Source: Escherichia coli
GTDB lineage: Bacteria; Pseudomonadota; Gammaproteobacteria; Enterobacterales; Enterobacteriaceae
Reading direction: 5' to 3' (one strand)
Assembly (NCBI RefSeq): GCF_003334305.1
Contig: NZ_QOWS01000023.1
DNA: 64,000 nucleotides
Shown one piece after another: positions 17,721 to 38,799 of the stretch. The position numbers were made by a program, and so were the translations under genes. Under the pieces are notes generated by a model, which searched no databases, was not told where the DNA came from, and worked only from the letters and a program-made list of their open reading frames with translations. Each line of letters begins with the position of its first letter. The first letter of the stretch is position 1.

Positions 17721-17811
17721 AACGCCTCCTGACGCAACAACTTACCCGCACAAAATAGAATTGTGCTGTACAAACGTCCAGTTGGAAAGGCATTTCCTGC
17801 GAGGCGCTACG

Positions 17812-22053: not shown

Positions 22054-22116
22054 ATAATTGGCGGTTACTGTATATTCCTCAAGCGCAAATTATTCATGCC
22101 GAAGTGAAGGACTTTC

Positions 22117-27239: not shown

Positions 27240-29069
27240 CTACTCTTCGTCGTCGCCATCGACATGCGCACGAATCAGCGCCATAAACGGTTTACCAAAG
27301 CGTTCCAGCTTGCGCATCCCAACGCCGTTAACGCTGAGCATTTCGCTGGCGGTGATCGGCATCTGTTCAGCCATCTCAATCAAGGTTGCGTCGTTAAACA
27401 CCACGTACGGCGGGACATTACTTTCATCGGCAATCGATTTACGCAGTTTGCGTAATTTGGCGAACAGTTTGCGATCATAGTTGCCGCCGAACGATTTCTG
27501 CATCGCTTTCGGTTTGAGCGCCACGATACGCGGCACGGCAAGTTGCAAAGAGGATTCGCCGCGCAGCACCGGGCGCGCGGCCTCTGTCAGTTGTAGGGCA
27601 GAATGCTGGGCAATATTTTGCGTCACCAGGCCGAGGTGAATCAGCTGGCGGATCACGCTCACCCAATGTTCATGGCTTTTATCACGGCCCATGCCATAGA
27701 CTTTCAGTTTGTCATGACCATAGTCGCGGATACGCTGGTTATTAGCACCACGAATCACTTCCACCACATAACCCATCCCAAACCGCTGATTCACACGACC
27801 AATGGTGGAAAGGGCAATCTGAGCATCGGTTGAACCATCGTATTGTTTCGGCGGATCGAGGCAGATATCGCAGTTCCCGCACGGCTCCTGACGCCCTTCG
27901 CCAAAATAGTTCAGCAGTACCAGACGACGGCAAGTTTGCGCTTCGGCAAAAGCGCCCATCGCATTGAGTTTATGACGTTCGATATCCTGCAACTGCCCCT
28001 GCGGCTTCTCTTCCAGACAACGGCGCAGCCACGCCATATCGGCCGGATCGTAAAACAGCATCGCTTCCGCGGGCAGGCCATCACGCCCGGCGCGACCGGT
28101 TTCCTGATAATAGGATTCGATATTGCGCGGAATATCAAAGTGGACCACGAAGCGAACGTTTGGTTTATTGATGCCCATGCCGAACGCCACCGTCGCCACC
28201 ACAATTTGCAGGTCATCGCGCTGGAATTTTTCCTGCACATCGGCGCGAACATTATTTTCCAGCCCGGCATGATAGGCCGCCGCGCTAATTCCCTTGCTTT
28301 GCAGGCGCGCAGCGGTGTCTTCTACTTTCGCGCGGCTGTTGCAGTAGATAATGCCTGACTTACCGCGCTGTTCCTGCACGTAGCGCATCAACTGATCGAG
28401 CGGTTTGAACTTCTCCATCAGCATGTAGCGAATATTCGGACGGTCAAAACTGTTGATTTGAATCAGCGGATCGTTCAGCCCCAGCAGGCGCACGATATCC
28501 TGGCGCGTGGTGTCGTCGGCTGTGGCGGTCAGCGCCATAAACGGCAGCGTCGGGAACCGCTGGCGCAACTGACCGAGCGCGGCATATTCCGGGCGGAAAT
28601 CGTGGCCCCATTGGGAGATACAGTGCGCTTCATCAACGGCTAATAACACCGGATTCCAGTGCGCCAGATGCTCAAGAAAGTTATCCAGCATCAGGCGTTC
28701 CGGGGCGATATAAAGCAGACGAATTTGCCCGGTGCGGCAGCCTGTCATCACTTCAAGTTGCTGTTCGCGGGTTTGCGTCGAGTTAAGGCACGCCGCCGCC
28801 ACGCCGTTGGCTTGCAGTTGATCCACCTGATCTTTCATCAACGAAATCAGCGGTGAAACAACCACGGTAAGGCCGTTTAGCAATAAGGCAGGAATTTGAT
28901 AGCAAAGGGATTTTCCGCCACCGGTGGGCATGACGACCAGGCAATCGCGACCGGAAAGCACAGTGTCGATAATTTCTTCCTGGCCGGGGCGAAACTGTTG
29001 GTAGCCAAAGGTTTCTTGTAAAACCTGTTTAGCTCCGGACTCCAGATTCAACACTTCCGCCTGCGCCAC
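27240..29069 (-). CDS. recQ: ATP-dependent DNA helicase RecQ (609 aa from a GTG start; a GTG two codons upstream at 29075 is the alternative)
   Basis: DEAH helicase, RecQ zinc-binding and HRDC regions; ORF track 27240-29075. Confidence 0.93.
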
Positions 29070-29087
29070 ATTCACCCCGATTGCCTG

Positions 29088-29119
29088 AAATAAAAACAGG
29101 CGCTATTTTCAGCGCCTGC
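29088..29119 (-). terminator. Rho-independent terminator downstream of pldA, immediately upstream of the recQ start
   Basis: Minus strand reads CAGGCGCT-GAAAAT-AGCGCCTG hairpin then TTTTTATTT; coordinates approximate (+/-2 bp). Confidence 0.7.
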
Positions 29120-29201
29120 ACGAGAAACTGCAATGCTTTTAGTCTCTGAGAGGGTAATCCTGGATGCTGGATTCCAGATTTGCCAACCACTCAACCGTTC
29201 A

Positions 29202-30071
29202 TCAAAACAAATCGTTTAGCATAACTCCCACACCGACACGGGTCTGGTTGAAGTTATAGTCGATGAGCGATTCGCCATAGCCGCTGTAAACCTGAGTATA
29301 AAGGCGCACATGTTTGGTGATCGGGTAACTTAAGCCTAACTCCGCGCCGCCGTAGCCGGTGTTCCAGTTGTACTGTCCTTTCGCACTGAGCACCGCATCA
29401 CCGAGGTGATAGCCGATTTTAAGCTGGTAGTAACCCATATATTTGGTGATATCCGGGTTATCGTCAGTATTACCCACCACATACCACGGCTTCACTTCTA
29501 CCAGCCAGTTACCGTTTTCTGCCATCAGGCGAGTATAAAGGCGGTTCCAGCTGCGGGAGGTCGGGTCTGAACGCCCGTTAGAGTCGTGGTTATACCCCAT
29601 CTCCACATCGCGCAGCGTCCAACCTGCAAAACGGTAATCGGTGGCAAAACCGAGGAACAATTGCGGTTCGTAGTTGGTTTCACGAAACGGTGAAGACTCT
29701 TCGCTATTGGACAGTTGCCACCAGGATTTTTGCGTATAAGATGCACCCAACACCGAGTTCGGGCCTAAAATCCCACGCCACAGTGGAAATGCCAGGCTCA
29801 ACTGAAACTTTACTTCATCCTTACGCGCATTTTCCGCCCAGTCGTAACTGGCAATCGCTTCTTTATTCAGATCGCTGGTTTGTGTGTAGATGAGGTAGTT
29901 GGTGTCATAAGGATAGAGCGTGAACGGATTGTCATGCTCCTGCAGCATATTGGCGATAATACTGCCACGCACCGCTGGCGCGTCATGCACCTCTTTCACC
30001 GTTGCCTCTTGTGCATATACTGCCATAGGCAACATAAACACCGGCAACAACCAGCCCTGCAGAGTCCGCAT
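29202..30071 (-). CDS. pldA: Outer-membrane phospholipase A, 289 aa
   Basis: Signal peptide plus beta-barrel phospholipase sequence; full-length. Confidence 0.95.
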   Translation of the reverse strand: MRTLQGWLLPVFMLPMAVYAQEATVKEVHDAPAVRGSIIANMLQEHDNPFTLYPYDTNYLIYTQTSDLNKEAIASYDWAENARKDEVKFQLSLAFPLWRGILGPNSVLGASYTQKSWWQLSNSEESSPFRETNYEPQLFLGFATDYRFAGWTLRDVEMGYNHDSNGRSDPTSRSWNRLYTRLMAENGNWLVEVKPWYVVGNTDDNPDITKYMGYYQLKIGYHLGDAVLSAKGQYNWNTGYGGAELGLSYPITKHVRLYTQVYSGYGESLIDYNFNQTRVGVGVMLNDLF

Positions 30072-30235
30072 CGGTCGTGTTCTCCGTAACGAATTATTGA
30101 TAAGGTGAATGTTTTTCTGCGGGCTATTTTACATACTTAACTCCATTGCCGTTAGTTATCCCTTCCTAAAGTAGAAACCAACAACAAAGAAGCATAAAAT
30201 CAACATTTCATTAACCAATGAAGTGTAAGGATGAT

Positions 30236-30703
30236 ATGTCTGCCGTACTGACTGCTGAACAAGCCCTGAAATTAGTGGGTGAGATGTTTGTTTATCACAT
30301 GCCATTTAACCGCGCATTGGGGATGGAACTGGAGCGTTACGAAAAAGAGTTCGCACAGCTGGCCTTTAAAAATCAGCCAATGATGGTGGGCAACTGGGCG
30401 CAAAGCATTTTGCACGGCGGGGTCATTGCGTCGGCGCTGGATGTCGCCGCCGGTCTGGTGTGCGTGGGAAGTACCTTAACCCGCCACGAAACCATCAGTG
30501 AAGATGAACTACGCCAGCGGCTATCGCGGATGGGGACCATTGATCTTCGCGTTGATTATCTGCGCCCAGGCAGGGGCGAGCGTTTTACTGCTACCAGTAG
30601 CCTGTTGCGTGCAGGCAATAAAGTCGCCGTCGCCCGCGTTGAATTACACAATGAAGAACAGCTTTATATTGCCAGTGCCACCGCCACCTATATGGTAGGT
30701 TGA
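30236..30703 (+). CDS. yigI: Hotdog-fold (PaaI-like) thioesterase YigI, 155 aa
   Basis: ORF track 30218-30703; start at 30236 (MSAVLTAEQ...). Confidence 0.85.
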
Positions 30704-30754
30704 AGACATAAAAGCAGGTAAACTGCTGTTACCAATTAAAAATGAGTATTCCCG

Positions 30755-31642
30755 ATGGATGCAAAACAAACGCGGCAGGGCGTATTACTCGCTCTTGCCG
30801 CTTATTTTATTTGGGGTATTGCGCCAGCGTACTTCAAGTTGATTTACTACGTGCCCGCCGATGAAATCCTGACGCATCGCGTGATCTGGTCGTTTTTCTT
30901 TATGGTGGTGCTGATGAGTATTTGCCGCCAGTGGTCCTATTTAAAAACGCTGATTCAGACGCCACAGAAAATTTTTATGCTGGCAGTCTCTGCCGTGCTG
31001 ATTGGTGGCAACTGGCTACTGTTTATCTGGGCGGTGAACAATCACCATATGCTGGAAGCGAGCCTTGGTTACTTTATTAACCCGCTGGTGAACATTGTGC
31101 TGGGGATGATTTTCCTCGGCGAGCGATTCCGCCGGATGCAATGGCTGGCGGTGATTCTGGCGATATGTGGCGTGTTAGTCCAGCTGTGGACTTTTGGTTC
31201 GCTACCTATTATCGCGCTGGGACTGGCATTTAGTTTTGCCTTCTACGGTCTGGTACGCAAGAAGATTGCCGTTGAAGCGCAAACCGGCATGTTAATCGAA
31301 ACCATGTGGCTGCTGCCCGTGGCGGCAATTTACCTGTTTGCTATTGCCGACAGCTCAACCAGCCATATGGGGCAAAACCCGATGTCGCTGAATTTACTGC
31401 TGATCGCCGCCGGTATTGTCACTACCGTACCGCTGTTGTGTTTTACCGCCGCTGCCACGCGCTTGCGTCTCTCAACGTTAGGCTTTTTCCAGTACATTGG
31501 CCCGACGCTGATGTTCCTGCTGGCTGTGACGTTTTATGGTGAAAAACCGGGTGCCGATAAGATGGTGACTTTCGCCTTTATTTGGGTGGCGCTGGCAATT
31601 TTTGTTATGGATGCGATTTATACGCAGCGTAGAAAAAGTTAA
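30755..31642 (+). CDS. rarD: DMT-family transporter RarD, 295 aa
   Basis: Full-length polytopic membrane ORF recognised as RarD. Confidence 0.92.
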   Translation: MDAKQTRQGVLLALAAYFIWGIAPAYFKLIYYVPADEILTHRVIWSFFFMVVLMSICRQWSYLKTLIQTPQKIFMLAVSAVLIGGNWLLFIWAVNNHHMLEASLGYFINPLVNIVLGMIFLGERFRRMQWLAVILAICGVLVQLWTFGSLPIIALGLAFSFAFYGLVRKKIAVEAQTGMLIETMWLLPVAAIYLFAIADSSTSHMGQNPMSLNLLLIAAGIVTTVPLLCFTAAATRLRLSTLGFFQYIGPTLMFLLAVTFYGEKPGADKMVTFAFIWVALAIFVMDAIYTQRRKS

Positions 31643-31688
31643 GAATTAACATGGGTAGGCCGTTTAATGAGCCTACCCACTGACTTAT

Positions 31689-32033
31689 TTATCTTTTTTT
31701 GAAAAAAATTAAGATAAGAAAAAGAACAATATTTGTTACAGGAAGTACCCCCAAAACTCCCCAGTACTTACTCCATCCTAGAGACATCGTATATCTACCA
31801 AGGATTTGACAAAACCCAAAACTTAACCCTATACCTATACTTCTTAAATTTAATGTCGTAGTCAGGCTTAAAATAAATAGAACAAGGATGGTAATAGCCC
31901 ACCACAATAACCATGCCTTAACAAAATCAGATTTTTTGCTGTAAGGTTCTTTACCCAAGAACAACTGCCAAAAGTTACCATTCCCCATATAGAATCCATT
32001 CCCCAAGATATTGTTTATAGAATAAAAATACAT
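31689..32033 (-). CDS. Hypothetical small membrane protein (114 aa, 2-3 predicted TM helices); possibly YigG-like
   Basis: ATG-initiated ORF in low-GC DNA with hydrophobic stretches WLLWWAITILVLFILSL and VLGVLPVTNIVLFLILIFF; no family recognised with confidence. Confidence 0.45.
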   Translation of the reverse strand: MYFYSINNILGNGFYMGNGNFWQLFLGKEPYSKKSDFVKAWLLWWAITILVLFILSLTTTLNLRSIGIGLSFGFCQILGRYTMSLGWSKYWGVLGVLPVTNIVLFLILIFFKKR

Positions 32034-32308
32034 TCCAATTATATAATTAAAATATACCCCATCAATAAAAACTTACACACTCTAAATTACTACTGTATAG
32101 TTATCAATGCAAAGACTGCTATATTGCATATATATGCAAACCTCATAATTCAGGTAATATATATATTCAAAACAATTATATATAAAAAACAATGTAAAAA
32201 ATATTCAAATCATCCATCAGAAATATATTCTACCCATCCAGGCTTGAGCATTTATCACGCTTTCAGTTCATAATCTATACATTAACATCATGGTCAATAT
32301 TAATAACT

Positions 32309-32587
32309 TTGAATGATATCAACCTGGCTTTGAGTTTTATTCTGGTTATTAATAATACCTATGTAAATATCAATATTGGAGCAAAAAGAATAAGAGATAC
32401 TGGATGTAAGGCAATCTACTTTGTATTGATTTCATTGGGTTTGACACTTTTTTCTATTATCTCTGCAGCAATTGAAGGGGTGAGATGTGAGTCATTAAGC
32501 GTCCAACTCAACGTGGCATGGATATTATTCACAACAATTATATTATCTGCGATTCCCTCGGCTAAAATGTCGCTGTCAGCACACTAA
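32309..32587 (+). CDS. Questionable small hydrophobic ORF (92 aa, TTG start only)
   Basis: No in-frame ATG near the 5' end; the ORF depends on a TTG start; hydrophobic; AT-rich context. Confidence 0.25.
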   Translation: MNDINLALSFILVINNTYVNINIGAKRIRDTGCKAIYFVLISLGLTLFSIISAAIEGVRCESLSVQLNVAWILFTTIILSAIPSAKMSLSAH

Positions 32588-32611
32588 CTTACTCACAGCG
32601 ACATCGTATAG

Positions 32612-32749
32612 TTACAGCCAGTTCTTACGCTTAAAGTACAGATACGGTGTCAGGCCCGCAAGGATCATAAAGATAATCGCGCCAGGGTAGCCAAAGCTCC
32701 ACTTCAGTTCTGGCATAAACTCAAAGTTCATGCCATAGCTGGAGGCAAT
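32612..32749 (-). pseudogene. Duplicated 3'-end fragment of corA (last ~45 codons), fused upstream to unrelated sequence
   Basis: ~138 bp at 32612-32749 align at ~94% identity (8 mismatches) with the 3' end of intact corA (34322-34459); encodes ...[43 protein letters not shown]. Confidence 0.8.
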
Positions 32750-32938
32750 CCGCGTAGGAAAAAGTTTCCTAATCGGTAAATTCAACATTTTGTTATTAAC
32801 AATGAGCAAGACCAATCATTAACGAGGTTCTCTTCAGAGATGTAATGAAAAAATGTGAAATGTACTTCTTTTTTAAATATTTTTTTACCCTAGCATTTGT
32901 TCTCGAATTGACATTGAGCTTAAATATAACCAAGGCAA

Positions 32939-33793
32939 ATGCAAATGAATAACATATTACTTCCGCCAATTAATATTCCCTGTACACTTTTCGAAACTAT
33001 TAGTTTATTCGATGATTTTTCTGCTGATGATATGCAATATGGTGATATGGTAGAACAAGACTTTCTCTCACTCGGCCTAAGCGATATCTCAGCAAAAGTT
33101 GATCCTTACAGACTTATTAAATACCATTTCCCTGGCCCAGGTTCTATTAATGTTGCTTTTAGTGCCTCAAGTTCCGGAACAAAAATATCACAACGTGAAT
33201 GCACTGATATTTTATTTGCAGAAATGAAAGAACTAGCAAAAATGTTTTCCTTTTTTGGACAAAATAAAACACTTATCGAAGATCTGATTGAACATTTTAG
33301 ATATAGAAATGGCAGCAATTTTCATAGCCAACAATTAAATTTATCTTTTCATGAAAAAATAAATAAATATGGTTATAATAGTCCAATACGAATAATCAAA
33401 GAATGTATCGAAAATGGCATTAATTCAACTCCCTCGACAGGATACCAACCTCTTATCCTGCAAAGCATTAAAACCAAATTACTTTCATCAAGACTAAATA
33501 AATTTAATGACTTCGAGGACAGTTTTAATGGCTTAGGAATCAGTGTTCATGATATTTCAGCTCAAAAAATATCTCTTTTAAGTTTTCAAAACTACGCTAT
33601 AGGATGGAGTGCAACAATTCATTTTGTAGCACAGGACCACTTCGGTCTTGATGTAACTGATATCAAAAACAAGACTTACAGCAAATATAGATTTTTTCGC
33701 ATATGGTTCTTTTTACAACGGCATAAAGACTTTGCTTTCAAACCTTTTTTCACCAATTTTAACACTATCGAAAGAATCGAAAATTATCTATGA
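32939..33793 (+). CDS. Hypothetical cytoplasmic protein, 284 aa, acidic N-terminus; first gene of an overlapping two-gene cassette
   Basis: ATG-initiated ORF in a low-GC islet; no signal peptide; stop overlaps the next start (ATGA); family not identifiable without a search. Confidence 0.65.
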   Translation: MQMNNILLPPINIPCTLFETISLFDDFSADDMQYGDMVEQDFLSLGLSDISAKVDPYRLIKYHFPGPGSINVAFSASSSGTKISQRECTDILFAEMKELAKMFSFFGQNKTLIEDLIEHFRYRNGSNFHSQQLNLSFHEKINKYGYNSPIRIIKECIENGINSTPSTGYQPLILQSIKTKLLSSRLNKFNDFEDSFNGLGISVHDISAQKISLLSFQNYAIGWSATIHFVAQDHFGLDVTDIKNKTYSKYRFFRIWFFLQRHKDFAFKPFFTNFNTIERIENYL

Positions 33794-34269
33794 AAAGCAA
33801 ACTCCAGAAAATTATATTATGTTTATTTCTTCTATGCTGCATCTATAATTTATGGACATTGCGTCCTGTACAGATTTTGTATACATACTCTGATGCTGGC
33901 AATTCAGTCTTTCTGGTCGTTGATCATCTGCCATGGACTGACAGCGATAAAATAAATTGGTATCTGAAGCATCAGAATGAAATTAAAAATCAACATCCCC
34001 TACCAGAAGGTAGTTGGCATACCTGGTATGTCATTGATATCGGTAATGGCTTCACTGACTATAAAAAATATATCGAAGGGCCGTATGAAGATCTCTACTG
34101 TTTCCCGACAATTAAGAGCAATGATAATTGCATCGTGAAAAATTACTTAATGGTTATTAATGAATACCCTTATCGTAACACTCATATTGGTATTAACGAT
34201 TTTACTGAGTATCAATTAACACAAGAAAATAAAATAGAGCGAGTTTTCAATCCGCATGACTTTAAATAA
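33790..34269 (+). CDS. Hypothetical exported or membrane-anchored protein, 159 aa; second gene of the cassette
   Basis: N-terminal hydrophobic segment MKSKLQKIILCLFLLCCIYNLWTL; start overlaps the upstream stop by 4 bp. Confidence 0.6.
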   Translation: MKSKLQKIILCLFLLCCIYNLWTLRPVQILYTYSDAGNSVFLVVDHLPWTDSDKINWYLKHQNEIKNQHPLPEGSWHTWYVIDIGNGFTDYKKYIEGPYEDLYCFPTIKSNDNCIVKNYLMVINEYPYRNTHIGINDFTEYQLTQENKIERVFNPHDFK

Positions 34270-34322
34270 GACAATTTTTAGAAATAAGCCGGATAAAAAA
34301 ATAGCTTTATCCGGCACTCATA

Positions 34323-35273
34323 TTACAGCCAGTTCTTGCGCTTAAAGTACAGATACGGTGCCAGGCCCGCGAGGATCATAAAGATAATCGCGCCTGGGTA
34401 GCCGAAACTCCACTTCAGTTCTGGCATAAACTCAAAGTTCATCCCATAGCTGGAAGCAACGAGCGTCGGCGGCAGGAATACCACGGATACCACCGAGAAG
34501 ATTTTGATGATGCGGTTCTGCTCGATGTTGATAAAGCCCATCGCCGCCTGCATCAGGAAGTTCACCTTCTGGAACAGGGATTCGTTATGCGGCAGCAGGG
34601 ATTCGATATCTCGCAGGATTTCACGCGCCTGCTCCAGTTGCCCACCCGGTAAACGCGCCTTGCGTACCAGGAAGTTGAGCGCACGCTGGGTATCCATCAG
34701 ACACAGGCGAACTTTCCAGCCGATATCTTCCAGTTCCGCCAGCGTGGAGAGCGCCTCATCGTACTCATCGCCCTGATGCCCTTCCATAATTACCCGGCTC
34801 AACTGCTCCAGATCGCTGTAGATATTTTCAATTTCATCTGCCAGCTGTTCGATTTTGGTTTCGAACAGATCCAACAGCAGCTCGTAGGCGTTACCGTCCA
34901 CCATTGACTGGCTACGGGCGCGCATACGATACAGACGGAATGCAGGCAGTTCACGCTCACGCAGAGTAAACAGACGACCATCACGGATGGTAAATGCCAC
35001 AGTGGAGTTACCGGCGTGATCTTCCGCATCTTCAAAGAAGAAGAAGGAGTGAATATGCAGGCCGTCGTCGTCTTCAAAGAAACGTGCCGATGCTTCGATG
35101 TCTTCCAGTTCCGGGCGGGTTGCCAGGCTCTGGCCAAGTTCAGATTGTACGCGCAGTCGCTCGTCGTCGTCCGGTTCGACAAGATCAATCCATACTGCAT
35201 TTACAAGGGGTTGTGACTCTTCGACTTCCAGCCGGGTCAGTCGGTTATTTTCCAGTTGAAATGCGCTCAGCAT
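34323..35273 (-). CDS. corA: Magnesium/cobalt transport protein CorA, 316 aa
   Basis: ORF track 34323-35288; start at 35273 ([15 protein letters not shown]...); C-terminal [10 protein letters not shown] motif. Confidence 0.95.
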
Positions 35274-35642
35274 GACCGGGACTCCCAATGCTTAAAATAT
35301 CGGACAGTTCGGTGGGCACACAGAAACAAATTGGGTTTCAGACCATTAAACAGCCTGACTCAGCGCGACGGGAAAAATTGAGGTCGCTGACAACCGCTAA
35401 GGCTATCAGCAAAAAGGGATAGCCTTAGGAGTTGATCCTGGATGACAGGATAGTGAGCCAGTATCTACTGGGTGTGTCCAAGGCGAATGTCCTCTTAGAG
35501 TGATCGTGCGCGCATGTTACGCCAGCAAAATTTTGCCGTCAACACGCAACAGAACACCACAGAACAATAGTTGAACTTCGCGCTTTTTGGTACTCGTCAA
35601 GGTCGCTAACAGGATAAAAAAATCCAACATCCAGGACCTATA

Positions 35643-36407
35643 ATGGCGCATCGGCTACTCATTGGTAAAGGAATGATCACCTTGAATCTCAAACGGATTT
35701 TTCTCACCCTCACCTTACTTCCCTTGTTTGCTGTTGCCGCTGATGATTGCGCACTCTCAGATCCGACGCTGACCGTACAGGCGTATACCGTTAATCCTCA
35801 AACAGAGCGGGTGAAAATGTACTGGCAAAAAGCCAATGGCGAAGCGTGGGGAACTTTACATGCTCTGCTGGCGGATATGAATAGTCAGGGTCAGGTGCAG
35901 ATGGCGATGAACGGCGGCATCTATGATGAAAGCTATGCGCCGCTCGGTTTGTACATCGAAAACGGTCAGCAGAAGGTGGCGTTAAATCTCGCTTCAGGTG
36001 AAGGGAATTTCTTTATCCGTCCTGGCGGCGTGTTTTATGTCGCGGGAGATAAAGTCGGCATCGTTCGTCTGGATGCCTTCAAAACCAGTAAAGAGATTCA
36101 GTTTGCGGTGCAGTCAGGGCCAATGTTGATGGAAAACAGTGTAATTAATCCGCGTATTCATCCCAACGTCGCCTCACGTAAAATTCGTAACGGTGTTGGG
36201 ATTAATAAACATGGGAATGCCGTGTTTTTGTTGAGCCAGCAGGCGACAAATTTTTATGATTTTGCCTGTTATGCCAAAGCGAAACTGAACGTTGAGCAGC
36301 TGCTTTATCTTGATGGCACGATTTCACATATGTATATGAAAGGCGGGGCAATCCCGTGGCAACGCTATCCTTTTGTCACCATGATTTCCGTAGAGCGGAA
36401 AGGTTAA
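35643..36407 (+). CDS. yigE: Exported DUF2233-type protein YigE, 254 aa
   Basis: Signal peptide plus conserved synteny between corA and uvrD. Confidence 0.85.
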   Translation: MAHRLLIGKGMITLNLKRIFLTLTLLPLFAVAADDCALSDPTLTVQAYTVNPQTERVKMYWQKANGEAWGTLHALLADMNSQGQVQMAMNGGIYDESYAPLGLYIENGQQKVALNLASGEGNFFIRPGGVFYVAGDKVGIVRLDAFKTSKEIQFAVQSGPMLMENSVINPRIHPNVASRKIRNGVGINKHGNAVFLLSQQATNFYDFACYAKAKLNVEQLLYLDGTISHMYMKGGAIPWQRYPFVTMISVERKG

Positions 36408-36443
36408 AACGATAGTTTTGTGTCAGATACTGAAGATGGCGCA

Positions 36444-36553
36444 GATGCCGGATGCGGCGTAAACGCCCTATCCGGCCTACATGACGTTGCAATTTATTGA
36501 ATATGAATGATTTTTTAGGCCAAATAAGGTGCGCAGCACCGCATCCGGCAACG
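36444..36553. repeat. REP/BIME elements between yigE and the uvrD 3' end
   Basis: GATGCCGGATGCGGCGTAAACGCCCTATCCGGCCTAC plus an inverted copy GCGCAGCACCGCATCCGGCAACG. Confidence 0.8.
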
Positions 36554-38716
36554 TTACACCGACTCCAGCCGGGCGTATGCCGCCACCAGCCATTTAATAC
36601 CCTGGCCCTGGAATGCCACCTGCAAACGGCTATGCTCGCCGCTGCCTTCCATATTGACGATGGTGCCTTCACCAAACTTAGCGTGGCGTACACGCTGACC
36701 GAGCTTGTAGCCGCTGTCGTTCTCGACCATCGGCGTCCCCATCCGTTGATGGCTGACCGGACGACTTACCGTAGCGCGCAGGCGCACCTCTTCCACACAC
36801 TCTTCCGGCAGCTCGCCGATAAAGCGCGACGGGCGATGGTAAACCTCTTTACCATACAGACGGCGGGTTTCCGCGTAGGTCAGCGTCAGTTTCTGCATCG
36901 CGCGGGTTACACCAACGTAGGCCAGACGGCGTTCTTCTTCCAGACGCCCGCCTTCATCCAGCGACATCTGGCTTGGGAACATACCCTCTTCCATACCGAC
37001 AATAAACACCTGCGGGAACTCCAGGCCTTTCGCCGAGTGCAGCGTCATCAACTGCACTGCATCCTGCCAGGTATCCGCCTGCCCCTCGCCCGCTTCCAGC
37101 GCCGCATGGGAGAGGAATGCCTGCAGCGGCATTAAATCTTCATCTTCTTCGTTGTAGCTGAACTGGCGCGTTGCCGTCACCAGTTCCTCTAAGTTTTCGA
37201 TACGCGTCTGGCCTTTTTCGCCCTTCTCCTGCTCGTACATGGTGCGCAGGCCGGAGTCTTTAATTACCCGGTCAGTCTGTACATGCAGCGGCATATCGGC
37301 AGTTTCTTGCGCTAAGGCATCGATTAATTCCATAAATCGCTGCAAGGCGCTGGCAGCTCGCCCGGCGAGGGCTTTTTCCTGCAACAGTTCACGACATGCC
37401 TGCCAGAGTGTTAACTGGCGATCGCGCGATGTCTGACGTACCACGTCCAGCGTCCGGTCACCAATACCCCGCGTTGGCGTATTCACCACACGCTCAAAGG
37501 CCGCGTCGTCGTTACGGTTGGCAATCAGGCGCAGATACGAGAGCGCATCTTTGATTTCCTGGCGTTCGAAGAAGCGCATCCCGCCGTAAATACGGTACGG
37601 CATACTCGCCTGCAACAGTGCTTCTTCCAGCACACGCGACTGGGCGTTACTGCGGTAGAGAATGGCGCACTCGGCAAGCGCCCCGCCGTTGTCCTGCCAG
37701 GTTTTGATGCGGTTAACCACAAAACGCGCTTCATCGAGTTCGTTAAAAGCGCAATAGAGGGAAATAGGCTCACCGTCCGCGCCATCGGTCCACAGTTTTT
37801 TACCCAAACGCCCGTTGTTGTTTTCAATCAGGGCGTTCGCGGCGCTCAGAATATTGCTGGTAGAGCGGTAGTTCTGCTCCAGACGGATAGTTTCAGCACC
37901 GGGGAAATCATTGAGGAAACGCTGAATATTCTCCACCTGCGCTCCACGCCAGCCGTAGATTGACTGATCGTCATCGCCAACGATCATCACTTTGCCGGTA
38001 TCGCCCGCCAGCAGGCGGATCCACGCATACTGAATGTTGTTGGTATCCTGGAATTCGTCCACCAGGATATTGGTAAACCGTTCGCGATAGTGCTGAAGGA
38101 TATGCGGCTTGTTAAGCCACAACTCGTGAGCACGTAGCAGCAGCTCGGCGAAGTCCACCAGGCCCGCGCGGTCACACGCTTCCTGATACGCCTGATACAC
38201 CTTCTGCCAGGTCTGCTCCACCGGATTACCGTAGCTTTGAATATGATGCGGACGCAGGCCTTCATCTTTCTGGCTGTTGATGTACCACATTGCCTGGCGC
38301 GGCGGCCACTGCTTCTCGTCGAGGTTCATGGCTTTGATCAGACGCTTAAGCAGGCGCAGCTGGTCCTCGCTATCGAGGATCTGGAAATCCTGCGGCAGAT
38401 TGGCGTCCATATGGTGCGCACGCAGCAAACGGTGCGCCAGCCCGTGGAAGGTGCCGACCCACATGCCGCCCTGGCTGGTGCCCATCAGTTGCCCGATACG
38501 ATGACGCATTTCCGCCGCCGCTTTGTTGGTAAACGTCACCGCCATAATCGAGTATGGCGAGCAGTTTTCCACGCTCATCAACCAGGCGATACGATGCACC
38601 AGTACGCGCGTCTTACCACTGCCCGCGCCCGCCAGCACCAGAAGGTTGCTGCGTGGCGCGGCCACCGCTTCGCGCTGTTTGTCATTAAGGCTGTCGAGCA
38701 GGTAAGAAACGTCCAT
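36554..38716 (-). CDS. uvrD: DNA helicase II UvrD, 720 aa
   Basis: ORF track 36554-38905; start at internal ATG 38716 (MDVSYLLDSLNDKQREAV...), consistent with the LexA box just upstream. Confidence 0.95.
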   Translation of the reverse strand: MDVSYLLDSLNDKQREAVAAPRSNLLVLAGAGSGKTRVLVHRIAWLMSVENCSPYSIMAVTFTNKAAAEMRHRIGQLMGTSQGGMWVGTFHGLAHRLLRAHHMDANLPQDFQILDSEDQLRLLKRLIKAMNLDEKQWPPRQAMWYINSQKDEGLRPHHIQSYGNPVEQTWQKVYQAYQEACDRAGLVDFAELLLRAHELWLNKPHILQHYRERFTNILVDEFQDTNNIQYAWIRLLAGDTGKVMIVGDDDQSIYGWRGAQVENIQRFLNDFPGAETIRLEQNYRSTSNILSAANALIENNNGRLGKKLWTDGADGEPISLYCAFNELDEARFVVNRIKTWQDNGGALAECAILYRSNAQSRVLEEALLQASMPYRIYGGMRFFERQEIKDALSYLRLIANRNDDAAFERVVNTPTRGIGDRTLDVVRQTSRDRQLTLWQACRELLQEKALAGRAASALQRFMELIDALAQETADMPLHVQTDRVIKDSGLRTMYEQEKGEKGQTRIENLEELVTATRQFSYNEEDEDLMPLQAFLSHAALEAGEGQADTWQDAVQLMTLHSAKGLEFPQVFIVGMEEGMFPSQMSLDEGGRLEEERRLAYVGVTRAMQKLTLTYAETRRLYGKEVYHRPSRFIGELPEECVEEVRLRATVSRPVSHQRMGTPMVENDSGYKLGQRVRHAKFGEGTIVNMEGSGEHSRLQVAFQGQGIKWLVAAYARLESV

Positions 38717-38774
38717 TGGCACCGCCGCGTAAAAATAGGTTGGGCGGAGAAGCGCAACGCCCTCCGCCAAAAAG

Positions 38775-38790
38775 CTGGGTATATATACAG
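38775..38790. promoter_or_regulatory. LexA (SOS) box of the uvrD promoter
   Basis: Minus strand reads CTGTATATATACCCAG, a CTGT-N8-(A)CAG match, ~60 bp upstream of the uvrD ATG. Confidence 0.8.
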
Positions 38791-38799
38791 ATTTGCTGA

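What the first reader, a model, noticed from the sequence alone, without database searches (positions are those of the whole stretch)
29069..29201. pldA intrinsic terminator lies ~20 bp upstream of the recQ start codon
The hairpin and U tract that terminate pldA (29088-29119, minus strand) end only about 20 bp before the recQ GTG start. Any recQ promoter must therefore sit at or upstream of the terminator, so the recQ mRNA would have to be transcribed through or start within this structure. That is a built-in attenuation point that could explain low recQ expression. I searched the interval for a canonical LexA box (CTGT-N8-ACAG) and did not find a convincing one.
Basis: seen in the sequence. 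Interest (0 to 1): 0.3.

Follow-up and report, generated by a model that had tools for sequence, protein, structure and literature searches.

The report
pldA terminator abutting recQ start
The hairpin is the ordinary, already catalogued transcription terminator of the E. coli pldA gene, sitting 18 bases before the recQ start codon. The recQ promoter most likely overlaps it rather than lying upstream, so it probably does not throttle recQ.

Summary
The window is E. coli. On the minus strand, pldA ends at 29202 and recQ starts at GTG 29069.

It is a real terminator:
- Folding gives -16.5 kcal/mol, z -3.9.
- Published SMRT-Cappable-seq data place the pldA mRNA 3' end at window 29092, and 1 of 64 reads passes through.
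- The site is already listed as the known b3821 terminator.

There is no LexA box. The best site scores 3.2 bits, against 16-17 bits for the uvrD and rmuC boxes in the same window.

The attenuation idea is not supported but not excluded. In 16 taxa the hairpin carries a conserved weak sigma-70 promoter-like motif: TTGCAG (29133..29128), 17 bp, then GAAAAT in the loop (29110..29105). It predicts a start near 29097, inside the 3' arm, which would give an mRNA that lacks the hairpin. The motif occurs only in the lineages that have this E. coli-type hairpin, and nearly all of those hairpins carry a T tract. Yersinia, Serratia and Pantoea have hairpins without a T tract, and two genera have no hairpin at all. 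No mapped recQ start site could be retrieved.

Verdict: ordinary, already known, low interest.

The parts
29202..29204 (-). pldA stop codon (TGA)
   Evidence: ORF 30071..29202; RefSeq annotation.
29139..29188 (-). Relic of the 3' end of a WapI-like immunity gene. This is the Escherichia-specific half of the intergenic region and is not part of the conserved module.
   Evidence: E. albertii has an intact 160-aa ORF here (L003 949..1431) that matches Pfam PF24716 WapI at 7.5e-20. The E. coli sequence aligns to its last ~50 nt, stop codon included. Most other genera have intergenic regions of only 63-90 nt.
29128..29133 (-). Candidate recQ -35 hexamer, TTGCAG (inferred)
   Evidence: TTG and the A are invariant, and C is present in 15 of 16 taxa, while the flanking unpaired columns vary (Fisher p=0.03, columns chosen post hoc). 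It is part of the best sigma-70 PWM hit in the 360 nt upstream of recQ.
29096..29119 (-). Terminator stem-loop: 10 bp, AAAA loop
   Evidence: -16.5 kcal/mol, z -3.9. Nearly invariant in 16 taxa. The homologous Yersinia hairpin keeps its pairing through three double changes.
29105..29110 (-). Candidate recQ -10 hexamer, GAAAAT, made of the last base of the 5' arm, the AAAA loop and the first base of the 3' arm (inferred)
   Evidence: Lies exactly 17 bp downstream of TTGCAG in all 16 module-bearing taxa, with no indels in the variable spacer.
29088..29096 (-). T/U tract, TTTTTATTT
   Evidence: The published pldA transcript end, MG1655 4005841, equals window 29092 and lies inside it (mapping).
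29097..29098 (-). Predicted recQ transcription start (equals MG1655 4005835-4005836). Inferred, not mapped.
   Evidence: 7-8 nt downstream of the candidate -10 hexamer. Gives a 5' UTR of about 28 nt.
29085..29099 (-). SOS-box look-alike, CTG-N9-CAG (one base short of CTG-N10-CAG). Not a LexA site.
   Evidence: PWM score 3.18 bits, against at least 12.7 for training sites and 16-17 for the in-window controls. The CAG half is not conserved in Citrobacter or Enterobacter.
29075..29078 (-). recQ Shine-Dalgarno sequence, GGGG
   Evidence: GGGG or GGAG is conserved 5-7 nt upstream of the GTG in all taxa.
29067..29069 (-). recQ start codon, GTG
   Evidence: RefSeq annotation. Conserved as GTG in all Enterobacterales loci examined.

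Best explanation
SHOWN. The stem-loop 29119..29096 plus the T tract to 29088 (minus strand) is the efficient intrinsic terminator of pldA. It releases pldA mRNA at about 29092.

INFERRED. The same DNA also carries a weak sigma-70 promoter for recQ. The -35 element is TTGCAG, 9 nt upstream of the stem. Seventeen bp further on, the -10 element GAAAAT coincides with the hairpin loop. RNA polymerase would start at about 29097, at the junction of the 3' arm and the T tract. The resulting recQ mRNA has a 5' UTR of about 28 nt, contains only half the hairpin, and so is not terminated by it. On this view low recQ expression comes from the weak promoter and the GTG start codon, with at most a few percent of extra transcription from read-through of pldA. 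LexA is not involved at this site.
For: Terminator:
- Canonical anatomy, and folding well beyond chance.
- In SMRT-Cappable-seq (Yan 2018, PMC6131387, Suppl. Data 1, M9 medium) the pldA transcript runs from 4004814 to 4005841, which is window 29092. Of 64 reads at the start site, 17 end at that position, 30 end within 50 bp downstream, and 1 passes through.
- That dataset types the site as 'terminator' and gives b3821, centre 4005825 (window 29108, the loop), as the nearest known terminator.

Promoter:
- TTGCAG-17-GAAAAT is the top sigma-70 PWM hit in 29420..29060 on the minus strand, at 7.67 bits.
- It is the top or near-top hit in 15 other taxa.
- In 16 taxa, including Pectobacterium, TTG.A and GAAAAT are invariant. 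The 8 nt between the -35 element and the stem vary freely but never change in length.
- In many genera the pldA stop codon lies only 2-6 nt before the TTGCA, so there is no non-coding room for a promoter upstream of the hairpin.
- The module stays attached to recQ when other genes are inserted after pldA, as in E. albertii and Superficieibacter.
- The motif is present in every taxon with the E. coli-type hairpin, nearly all of which carry a T-rich tail (Enterobacter sp. Ag1 is weaker, 4 of 9 T). It is absent wherever the T tract is missing: Yersinia, Serratia, Pantoea, Acerihabitans.

No LexA site: with the uvrD and rmuC boxes as in-window positive controls.
Against: - No mapped recQ start site could be retrieved.
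- The motif is weak: 7 of 12 matches, with only 3 of 6 in the -35 element. It fails the built-in promoter scan, and a score this high is expected about once per 450 nt by chance.
- Conservation of GAAAAT is confounded with conservation of the hairpin itself.
- 'Klebsiella sp.' BIGb0407 (L011) and Photorhabdus keep a hairpin plus T tract but lose the exact motif.
- Pseudescherichia and Buttiauxella have no hairpin and intergenic regions of only 29-35 nt. recQ can therefore be expressed from transcription that starts in or before pldA.
- The PWM frequencies were recalled from memory, not taken from a database.
Confidence: 0.55

Rival explanations
1. recQ has no promoter of its own at the hairpin. 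Its transcripts start upstream, at the pldA promoter or at a promoter inside the pldA 3' coding region, and must read through the pldA terminator. The terminator then acts as a constitutive attenuator that keeps recQ low. The known parallels are the frd terminator acting as the ampC attenuator, and terminator T1 between rpsU and dnaG.
For: - The geometry allows it.
- pldA and recQ are co-directional neighbours across the Enterobacterales, with short intergenic regions.
- Two genera have no hairpin at all, and Yersinia and Serratia have hairpins without a T tract. This implies co-transcription in those lineages.
- One long read-through read (about 1.1 kb) is recorded in E. coli.
- A candidate promoter, CAGACC-17-TATGCT, sits in the last pldA codons at 29246..29218.
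Against: - Only 1 of 64 reads passes the terminator.
- No conserved alternative (antiterminator) pairing was seen. The GUUUC segment that could pair with the loop is replaced in three genera.
- The internal pldA candidate is weak in E. coli (5.6 bits), and its conservation is explained by coding constraint.
- The model does not explain why TTGCA is invariant, at a fixed 17-bp distance from the loop, amid variable flanking sequence.
Confidence: 0.3
2. The hairpin acts mainly as an intercistronic RNA-stability element in a pldA-recQ operon. It would block 3' exonucleases and so stabilise the pldA segment, with termination a secondary effect.
For: Hairpins without T tracts occupy the same position in Yersinia, Serratia and Pantoea. 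The Yersinia hairpin keeps its pairing through compensatory changes.
Against: In E. coli the hairpin has a textbook U tract. RNA 3' ends fall in that tract, and almost no reads continue past it.
Confidence: 0.1
3. The CTG-N9-CAG sequence at 29099..29085 is a degenerate LexA operator that places recQ under SOS control.
For: An old report is titled 'evidence for SOS regulation' of recQ (Irino 1986; only the title was seen, in a reference list). The sequence would overlap the predicted start site.
Against: - The spacing is one base short.
- The PWM score is 3.18 bits, against at least 12.7 for known sites. It ranks 56th in the window, whereas the uvrD and rmuC boxes rank in the top two.
- The CAG half is not conserved in Citrobacter or Enterobacter.
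- recQ is not mentioned in the main text of a 2024 E. coli DNA-damage transcriptome study.
Confidence: 0.03

Closest known systems
Canonical Rho-independent terminator (the pldA/b3821 terminator already catalogued for E. coli K-12)
   Same: GC-rich 10-bp stem, 4-nt loop, U tract, RNA 3' ends within the U tract, position just after a stop codon. The site is listed as a known terminator in the table.
   Different: Nothing structural. The only unusual feature is that it ends 18 nt before the next start codon.
frd terminator / ampC attenuator of E. coli
   Same: The terminator of an upstream operon lies immediately in front of a weakly expressed downstream gene. The promoter region of that gene overlaps the upstream coding sequence: the ampC promoter contains part of frdD, and ampC has -35, -10 and attenuator elements (PMC11796351).
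   Different: In ampC the promoter lies upstream of the hairpin, so ampC mRNA contains the hairpin (established knowledge). Here the conserved promoter-like motif straddles the hairpin and predicts a start inside the 3' arm, so no attenuation is expected.
Terminator T1 between rpsU and dnaG in the macromolecular-synthesis operon (from established knowledge, not checked here)
   Same: An intrinsic terminator lies a few tens of nt before a low-abundance DNA-metabolism gene and limits read-through from a more strongly expressed upstream gene.
   Different: dnaG depends on read-through. For recQ in E. coli, read-through appears to be about 2%, and a dedicated overlapping promoter is the more likely source of transcripts.

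Membership tests
Intrinsic (Rho-independent) terminator | GC-rich stem-loop more stable than chance | tested here: met
   10 bp, 6 G-C pairs, -16.5 kcal/mol, z -3.9, 0 of 200 shuffles as stable.
Intrinsic (Rho-independent) terminator | U-rich tract immediately 3' of the stem | tested here: met
   UUUUUAUUU at 29096..29088.
Intrinsic (Rho-independent) terminator | Transcript 3' ends map in the U tract in vivo, with little read-through | tested here: met
   Published SMRT-Cappable-seq table: transcript end at 4005841, equal to window 29092; 1 of 64 reads passes through.
Leader attenuator of the downstream gene (ampC/frd type) | The downstream gene's transcription start lies upstream of the hairpin | not testable with these tools
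   No recQ start-site data could be retrieved. Sequence evidence points to a start inside the hairpin.
Leader attenuator of the downstream gene (ampC/frd type) | Substantial read-through transcripts that reach the downstream gene | tested here: inconclusive
   One read-through read of about 1.1 kb among 64. The dataset is shallow and covers one growth condition.
Regulated attenuator / riboswitch | Conserved alternative (antiterminator) structure, or a match to a known RNA family | tested here: not met
   No Rfam match. The whole intergenic region folds no better than shuffles (z +0.59). The only candidate competing segment is not conserved.
Sigma-70 promoter | -35 and -10 hexamers with 17 +/- 1 bp spacing | tested here: inconclusive
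   TTGCAG-17-GAAAAT has 7 of 12 matches and scores 7.67 bits. It is the best hit in the upstream 360 nt, but it fails the stricter scan, and a score this high is expected once per ~450 nt.
Sigma-70 promoter | Hexamers and spacing conserved while the spacer sequence drifts | tested here: met
   16 taxa, invariant TTG.A and GAAAAT, spacer variable in sequence but without indels. Conservation of the -10 element is confounded with the hairpin.
Sigma-70 promoter | Mapped primary 5' end 6-8 nt downstream of the -10 element | not testable with these tools
   No data retrievable.
LexA (SOS) box | CTGT-N8-ACAG palindrome scoring in the range of known sites | tested here: not met
   The best local site is CTG-N9-CAG at 3.18 bits. 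Known sites score at least 12.7, and the in-window uvrD and rmuC boxes score 16.05 and 17.0.

The most novel reading that the evidence does not exclude
The pldA terminator and the recQ promoter are one dual-coded element that is conserved across the Enterobacteriaceae and Pectobacterium. As RNA it is a hairpin, and the loop of that hairpin, read as DNA, is the -10 hexamer. Polymerases that terminate pldA at about 29092 could then re-initiate directly at the overlapping recQ start at about 29097. That would couple a trickle of recQ transcription to pldA transcription. The run of five T residues right after the predicted start might add UTP-sensitive reiterative transcription.
Probability: 0.1. 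Interest if true: 0.5.

Novelty: already known. Interest (0 to 1): 0.15.

Why it matters
The finding matters little. It clarifies that low RecQ levels in E. coli need not come from attenuation. The pldA terminator is efficient, and recQ probably has its own weak promoter laid over it. The comparison across Enterobacterales shows how neighbouring genes move between co-transcription (no hairpin, or a hairpin without a U tract) and insulation with a dedicated promoter. It also removes the pldA-recQ spacer from consideration as a LexA target.

Tried and rejected
- Mapped recQ start sites or extra 3'-end data. I searched the supplements of Adams 2021, Kim 2012, Ettwiller 2016, Conway 2014, Cho 2014 and TERMITe 2025. 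The files were truncated or had no entry. Thomason 2015 and Irino 1986 are not held.
- Literature searches for recQ+pldA+terminator and for 'recQp' returned nothing.
- Rfam gave no family match.
- Sigma-54 reading of TTGCA was rejected, because there is no GG 11-12 nt upstream (sequence inspection).
- Antisense promoter TTGCCT-17-TATTTT on the plus strand was rejected, because its -35 element is not conserved.
- An RNase E site at CAG|UUU was rejected, because it is not conserved in genera with TTGCACTCT.
- A promoter between the T tract and the GTG was rejected. Only a poor TATTTC with no -35 element is available there.
- The second-best E. coli candidate, TTGGCA-18-CAGGAT (29186..29157), lies in the Escherichia-only WapI relic and is absent from other genera.
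- Formal covariation counting failed, because MAFFT misaligned the shorter Yersinia hairpin. Pairs were compared by eye instead.

Full report
IDENTITY AND ANATOMY

The 501 nt around the finding match all 5426 complete E. coli genomes. They are 100% identical to strain A7. RefSeq annotation places the pldA stop at window 29204..29202 and the recQ GTG at 29069..29067, both on the minus strand. The intergenic region is 132 nt. It has no indels relative to MG1655, so MG1655 coordinate = 4005864 + (29069 - window coordinate).

The minus strand reads as follows:
- pldA stop codon;
- 66 nt of spacer;
- AGCATTGCAGTTTCTCGT;
- the stem-loop GCAGGCGCTG-AAAA-TAGCGCCTGT (29119..29096);
- the T tract TTTTTATTT, ending at 29088;
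- CAGGCAATC, then GGGG (Shine-Dalgarno sequence, 29078..29075), then TGAAT, then the GTG.

The ORF lister's 611-aa version starts at an upstream GTG (29075). That codon is not conserved in other genera or in one E. coli strain, so the annotated start at 29069 stands.

Yes. The consensus scan calls this hairpin a terminator with 10 pairs, 6 of them G-C. It folds at -16.5 kcal/mol, against -8.0 +/- 2.2 for shuffles; z is -3.9 and 0 of 200 shuffles do as well. The T tract ends 18 nt before the GTG. The sequence is unique in the window and single-copy in E. coli genomes, so it is not a repeat element. No Rfam family matches.

IS IT A FUNCTIONAL TERMINATOR?

Published SMRT-Cappable-seq data for MG1655 in M9 medium (Yan et al. 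2018, PMC6131387, Supplementary Data 1) list one pldA transcript, running from 4004814 to 4005841. The end equals window 29092, which is inside the T tract.
- 64 reads begin at the start site.
- 17 reads end exactly at 4005841.
- 30 reads end within 50 bp downstream.
- 1 read passes through.

The site is typed 'terminator'. The nearest known terminator is given as b3821, centred at 4005825, which is window 29108, the hairpin loop. The element is therefore an efficient terminator that is already catalogued.

LEXA

I built a position weight matrix from 19 E. coli LexA boxes recalled from the literature and scanned the whole window. The two top hits are boxes that were not in the training set. 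One is the uvrD box (38792..38773, 57-76 nt upstream of the uvrD ATG at 38716; 16.05 bits). The other lies about 55 nt upstream of rmuC (17783..17764; 17.0 bits).

The best site in the pldA-recQ spacer is GCCTGTTTTTATTTCAGGCA, at 3.18 bits and rank 56. It is CTG-N9-CAG, one base short of the canonical spacing, and its CAG half is lost in Citrobacter and Enterobacter.

WHERE IS THE recQ PROMOTER?

The 18 nt after the T tract hold the Shine-Dalgarno sequence and cannot hold a promoter. I collected the recQ upstream region from 25 other Enterobacterales taxa.

In 16 taxa the same module is present. These are Escherichia, Citrobacter, four Enterobacter-like strains, Superficieibacter, Scandinavium, Pluralibacter, Cronobacter, Kosakonia, Shimwellia, one metagenomic enterobacterium and Pectobacterium. 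The module consists of:
- (A/G)TTGCA(G/C);
- 8 variable nucleotides;
- a nearly invariant hairpin, CAGGCGCTGAAAATAGCGCCTG;
- a T tract.

In most of these taxa the pldA stop codon is only 2-6 nt upstream of TTGCA, and the intergenic region is 63-90 nt. No non-coding space exists for a promoter upstream of the hairpin.

TTGCAG and the loop sequence GAAAAT are exactly 17 bp apart in all 16 taxa. The spacer varies in sequence but never in length, whereas the segment after the T tract does vary in length. A sigma-70 matrix, with frequencies recalled from memory, ranks TTGCAG-17-GAAAAT first in the 360 nt upstream of E. coli recQ at 7.67 bits. It ranks first to third in the other module-bearing taxa.

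The predicted start is near 29097-29098, at the junction of the 3' arm and the T tract. The resulting mRNA would lack the 5' arm and could not form the terminator.

Support from distribution:
- The module stays next to recQ when other genes are inserted after pldA, as in E. albertii and Superficieibacter.
- In Photorhabdus a homologous hairpin with a T tract lies 24-28 nt before recQ although pldA is not upstream.
- The motif is found in every taxon with the E. coli-type hairpin, nearly all of which have a T-rich tail (Enterobacter sp. Ag1 is weaker, 4 of 9 T). It is absent where the hairpin lacks a T tract: Yersinia, Serratia, Pantoea and Acerihabitans.
- This pattern fits a simple logic. If upstream transcription is stopped efficiently, recQ needs its own promoter.

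CAVEATS

- The motif is weak, with 7 of 12 matches and only 3 of 6 in the -35 element. It fails the stricter built-in scan, and a score this high arises about once per 450 nt by chance.
- The -35 conservation test (p=0.03) used columns chosen post hoc.
- Conservation of the -10 element cannot be separated from conservation of the hairpin.
- 'Klebsiella sp.' BIGb0407 re-pairs the hairpin and loses the final T of the -10 element. Photorhabdus loses the motif altogether.
- Pseudescherichia vulneris and Buttiauxella have no hairpin and intergenic regions of only 35 and 29 nt. There recQ must be transcribed from within or before pldA.
- A candidate inside the last pldA codons, CAGACC-17-TATGCT, exists in all taxa, but its conservation is explained by coding constraint.
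- I could not retrieve any mapped recQ start site. The 1986 recQ sequence paper is not held, so I cannot say what promoter it proposed.

MECHANISM AND RIVALS

Best reading (confidence 0.55). The hairpin terminates pldA; this step is shown. recQ starts from a weak promoter laid over the hairpin and escapes termination; this step is inferred. The weak promoter and the GTG start codon account for low expression.

Main rival (0.3). The ampC promoter includes part of frdD and has -35, -10 and attenuator elements (PMC11796351). It also resembles terminator T1 in front of dnaG (from general knowledge). Against it stand the roughly 2% read-through, the lack of any conserved alternative structure, and the unexplained invariance of TTGCA.

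Minor rivals. An RNA-stability hairpin in an operon (0.1) is plausible for Yersinia and Serratia but not for E. coli. A degenerate LexA operator (0.03) is very unlikely.

NOVELTY AND VERDICT

The terminator is catalogued, and the tight spacing can be read directly from the annotated genome. The finding is ordinary. The one mildly interesting outcome is the conserved overlap of promoter and terminator, and the way it changes across the Enterobacterales. A single 5'-end mapping experiment would settle it.

Noticed in passing
window 29139..29188 (minus strand); L003 949..1431: The upstream half of the E. coli pldA-recQ spacer is the 3' relic of a WapI-like immunity gene (Pfam PF24716, 7.5e-20). 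The gene is intact between pldA and recQ in E. albertii. In E. coli genomes only short, unrelated fragments of that gene match (3 of 5426 genomes, 16% coverage or less).
   Followed up: yes
window 29120: The window has T where MG1655 and other E. coli, and E. albertii, have C. This is the base just 5' of the stem, within the putative promoter spacer. Only strain A7 (orangutan isolate) is 100% identical over the 71-nt module among 5426 genomes.
   Followed up: partly
window 38773..38792 and 17764..17783: Two strong LexA boxes were found: the uvrD operator (57-76 nt upstream of the uvrD ATG at 38716) and a box about 55 nt upstream of rmuC (yigN). They served as positive controls for the LexA scan.
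   Followed up: yes
window 22066..22085: The third-best LexA-like site in the window is TACTGTATATTCCTCAAGCG, at 12.75 bits, with a good left half and CAAG instead of CAG on the right. It maps roughly to the metR-metE intergenic region.
   Followed up: no
window 29069..38716: The distance from the recQ start to the uvrD start is 9647 nt in the window and 7881 nt in MG1655. The window strain therefore carries about 1.77 kb of extra DNA somewhere between uvrD and recQ.
   Followed up: no
L085 1466..1500; L087 1472..1500: Pseudescherichia vulneris and Buttiauxella warmboldiae have lost the whole hairpin module. pldA and recQ are only 35 and 29 nt apart, which implies co-transcription.
   Followed up: partly
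L093 1424..1500; L095 1455..1500; L096 1433..1500: Yersinia pestis keeps a homologous hairpin through three compensatory pair changes but has no T tract. Serratia and Pantoea have unrelated hairpins without T tracts at the same place. The Pantoea loop contains TATACT, again resembling a -10 element.
   Followed up: partly
window ~29500 (inside pldA): Shimada et al. 2017 (PMC5493296) list a genomic-SELEX peak for the sigma-28 (flagellar sigma) RNA polymerase holoenzyme inside pldA, between yigI and recQ, and a sigma-32 (heat-shock sigma) peak in the yigI-pldA spacer.
   Followed up: no
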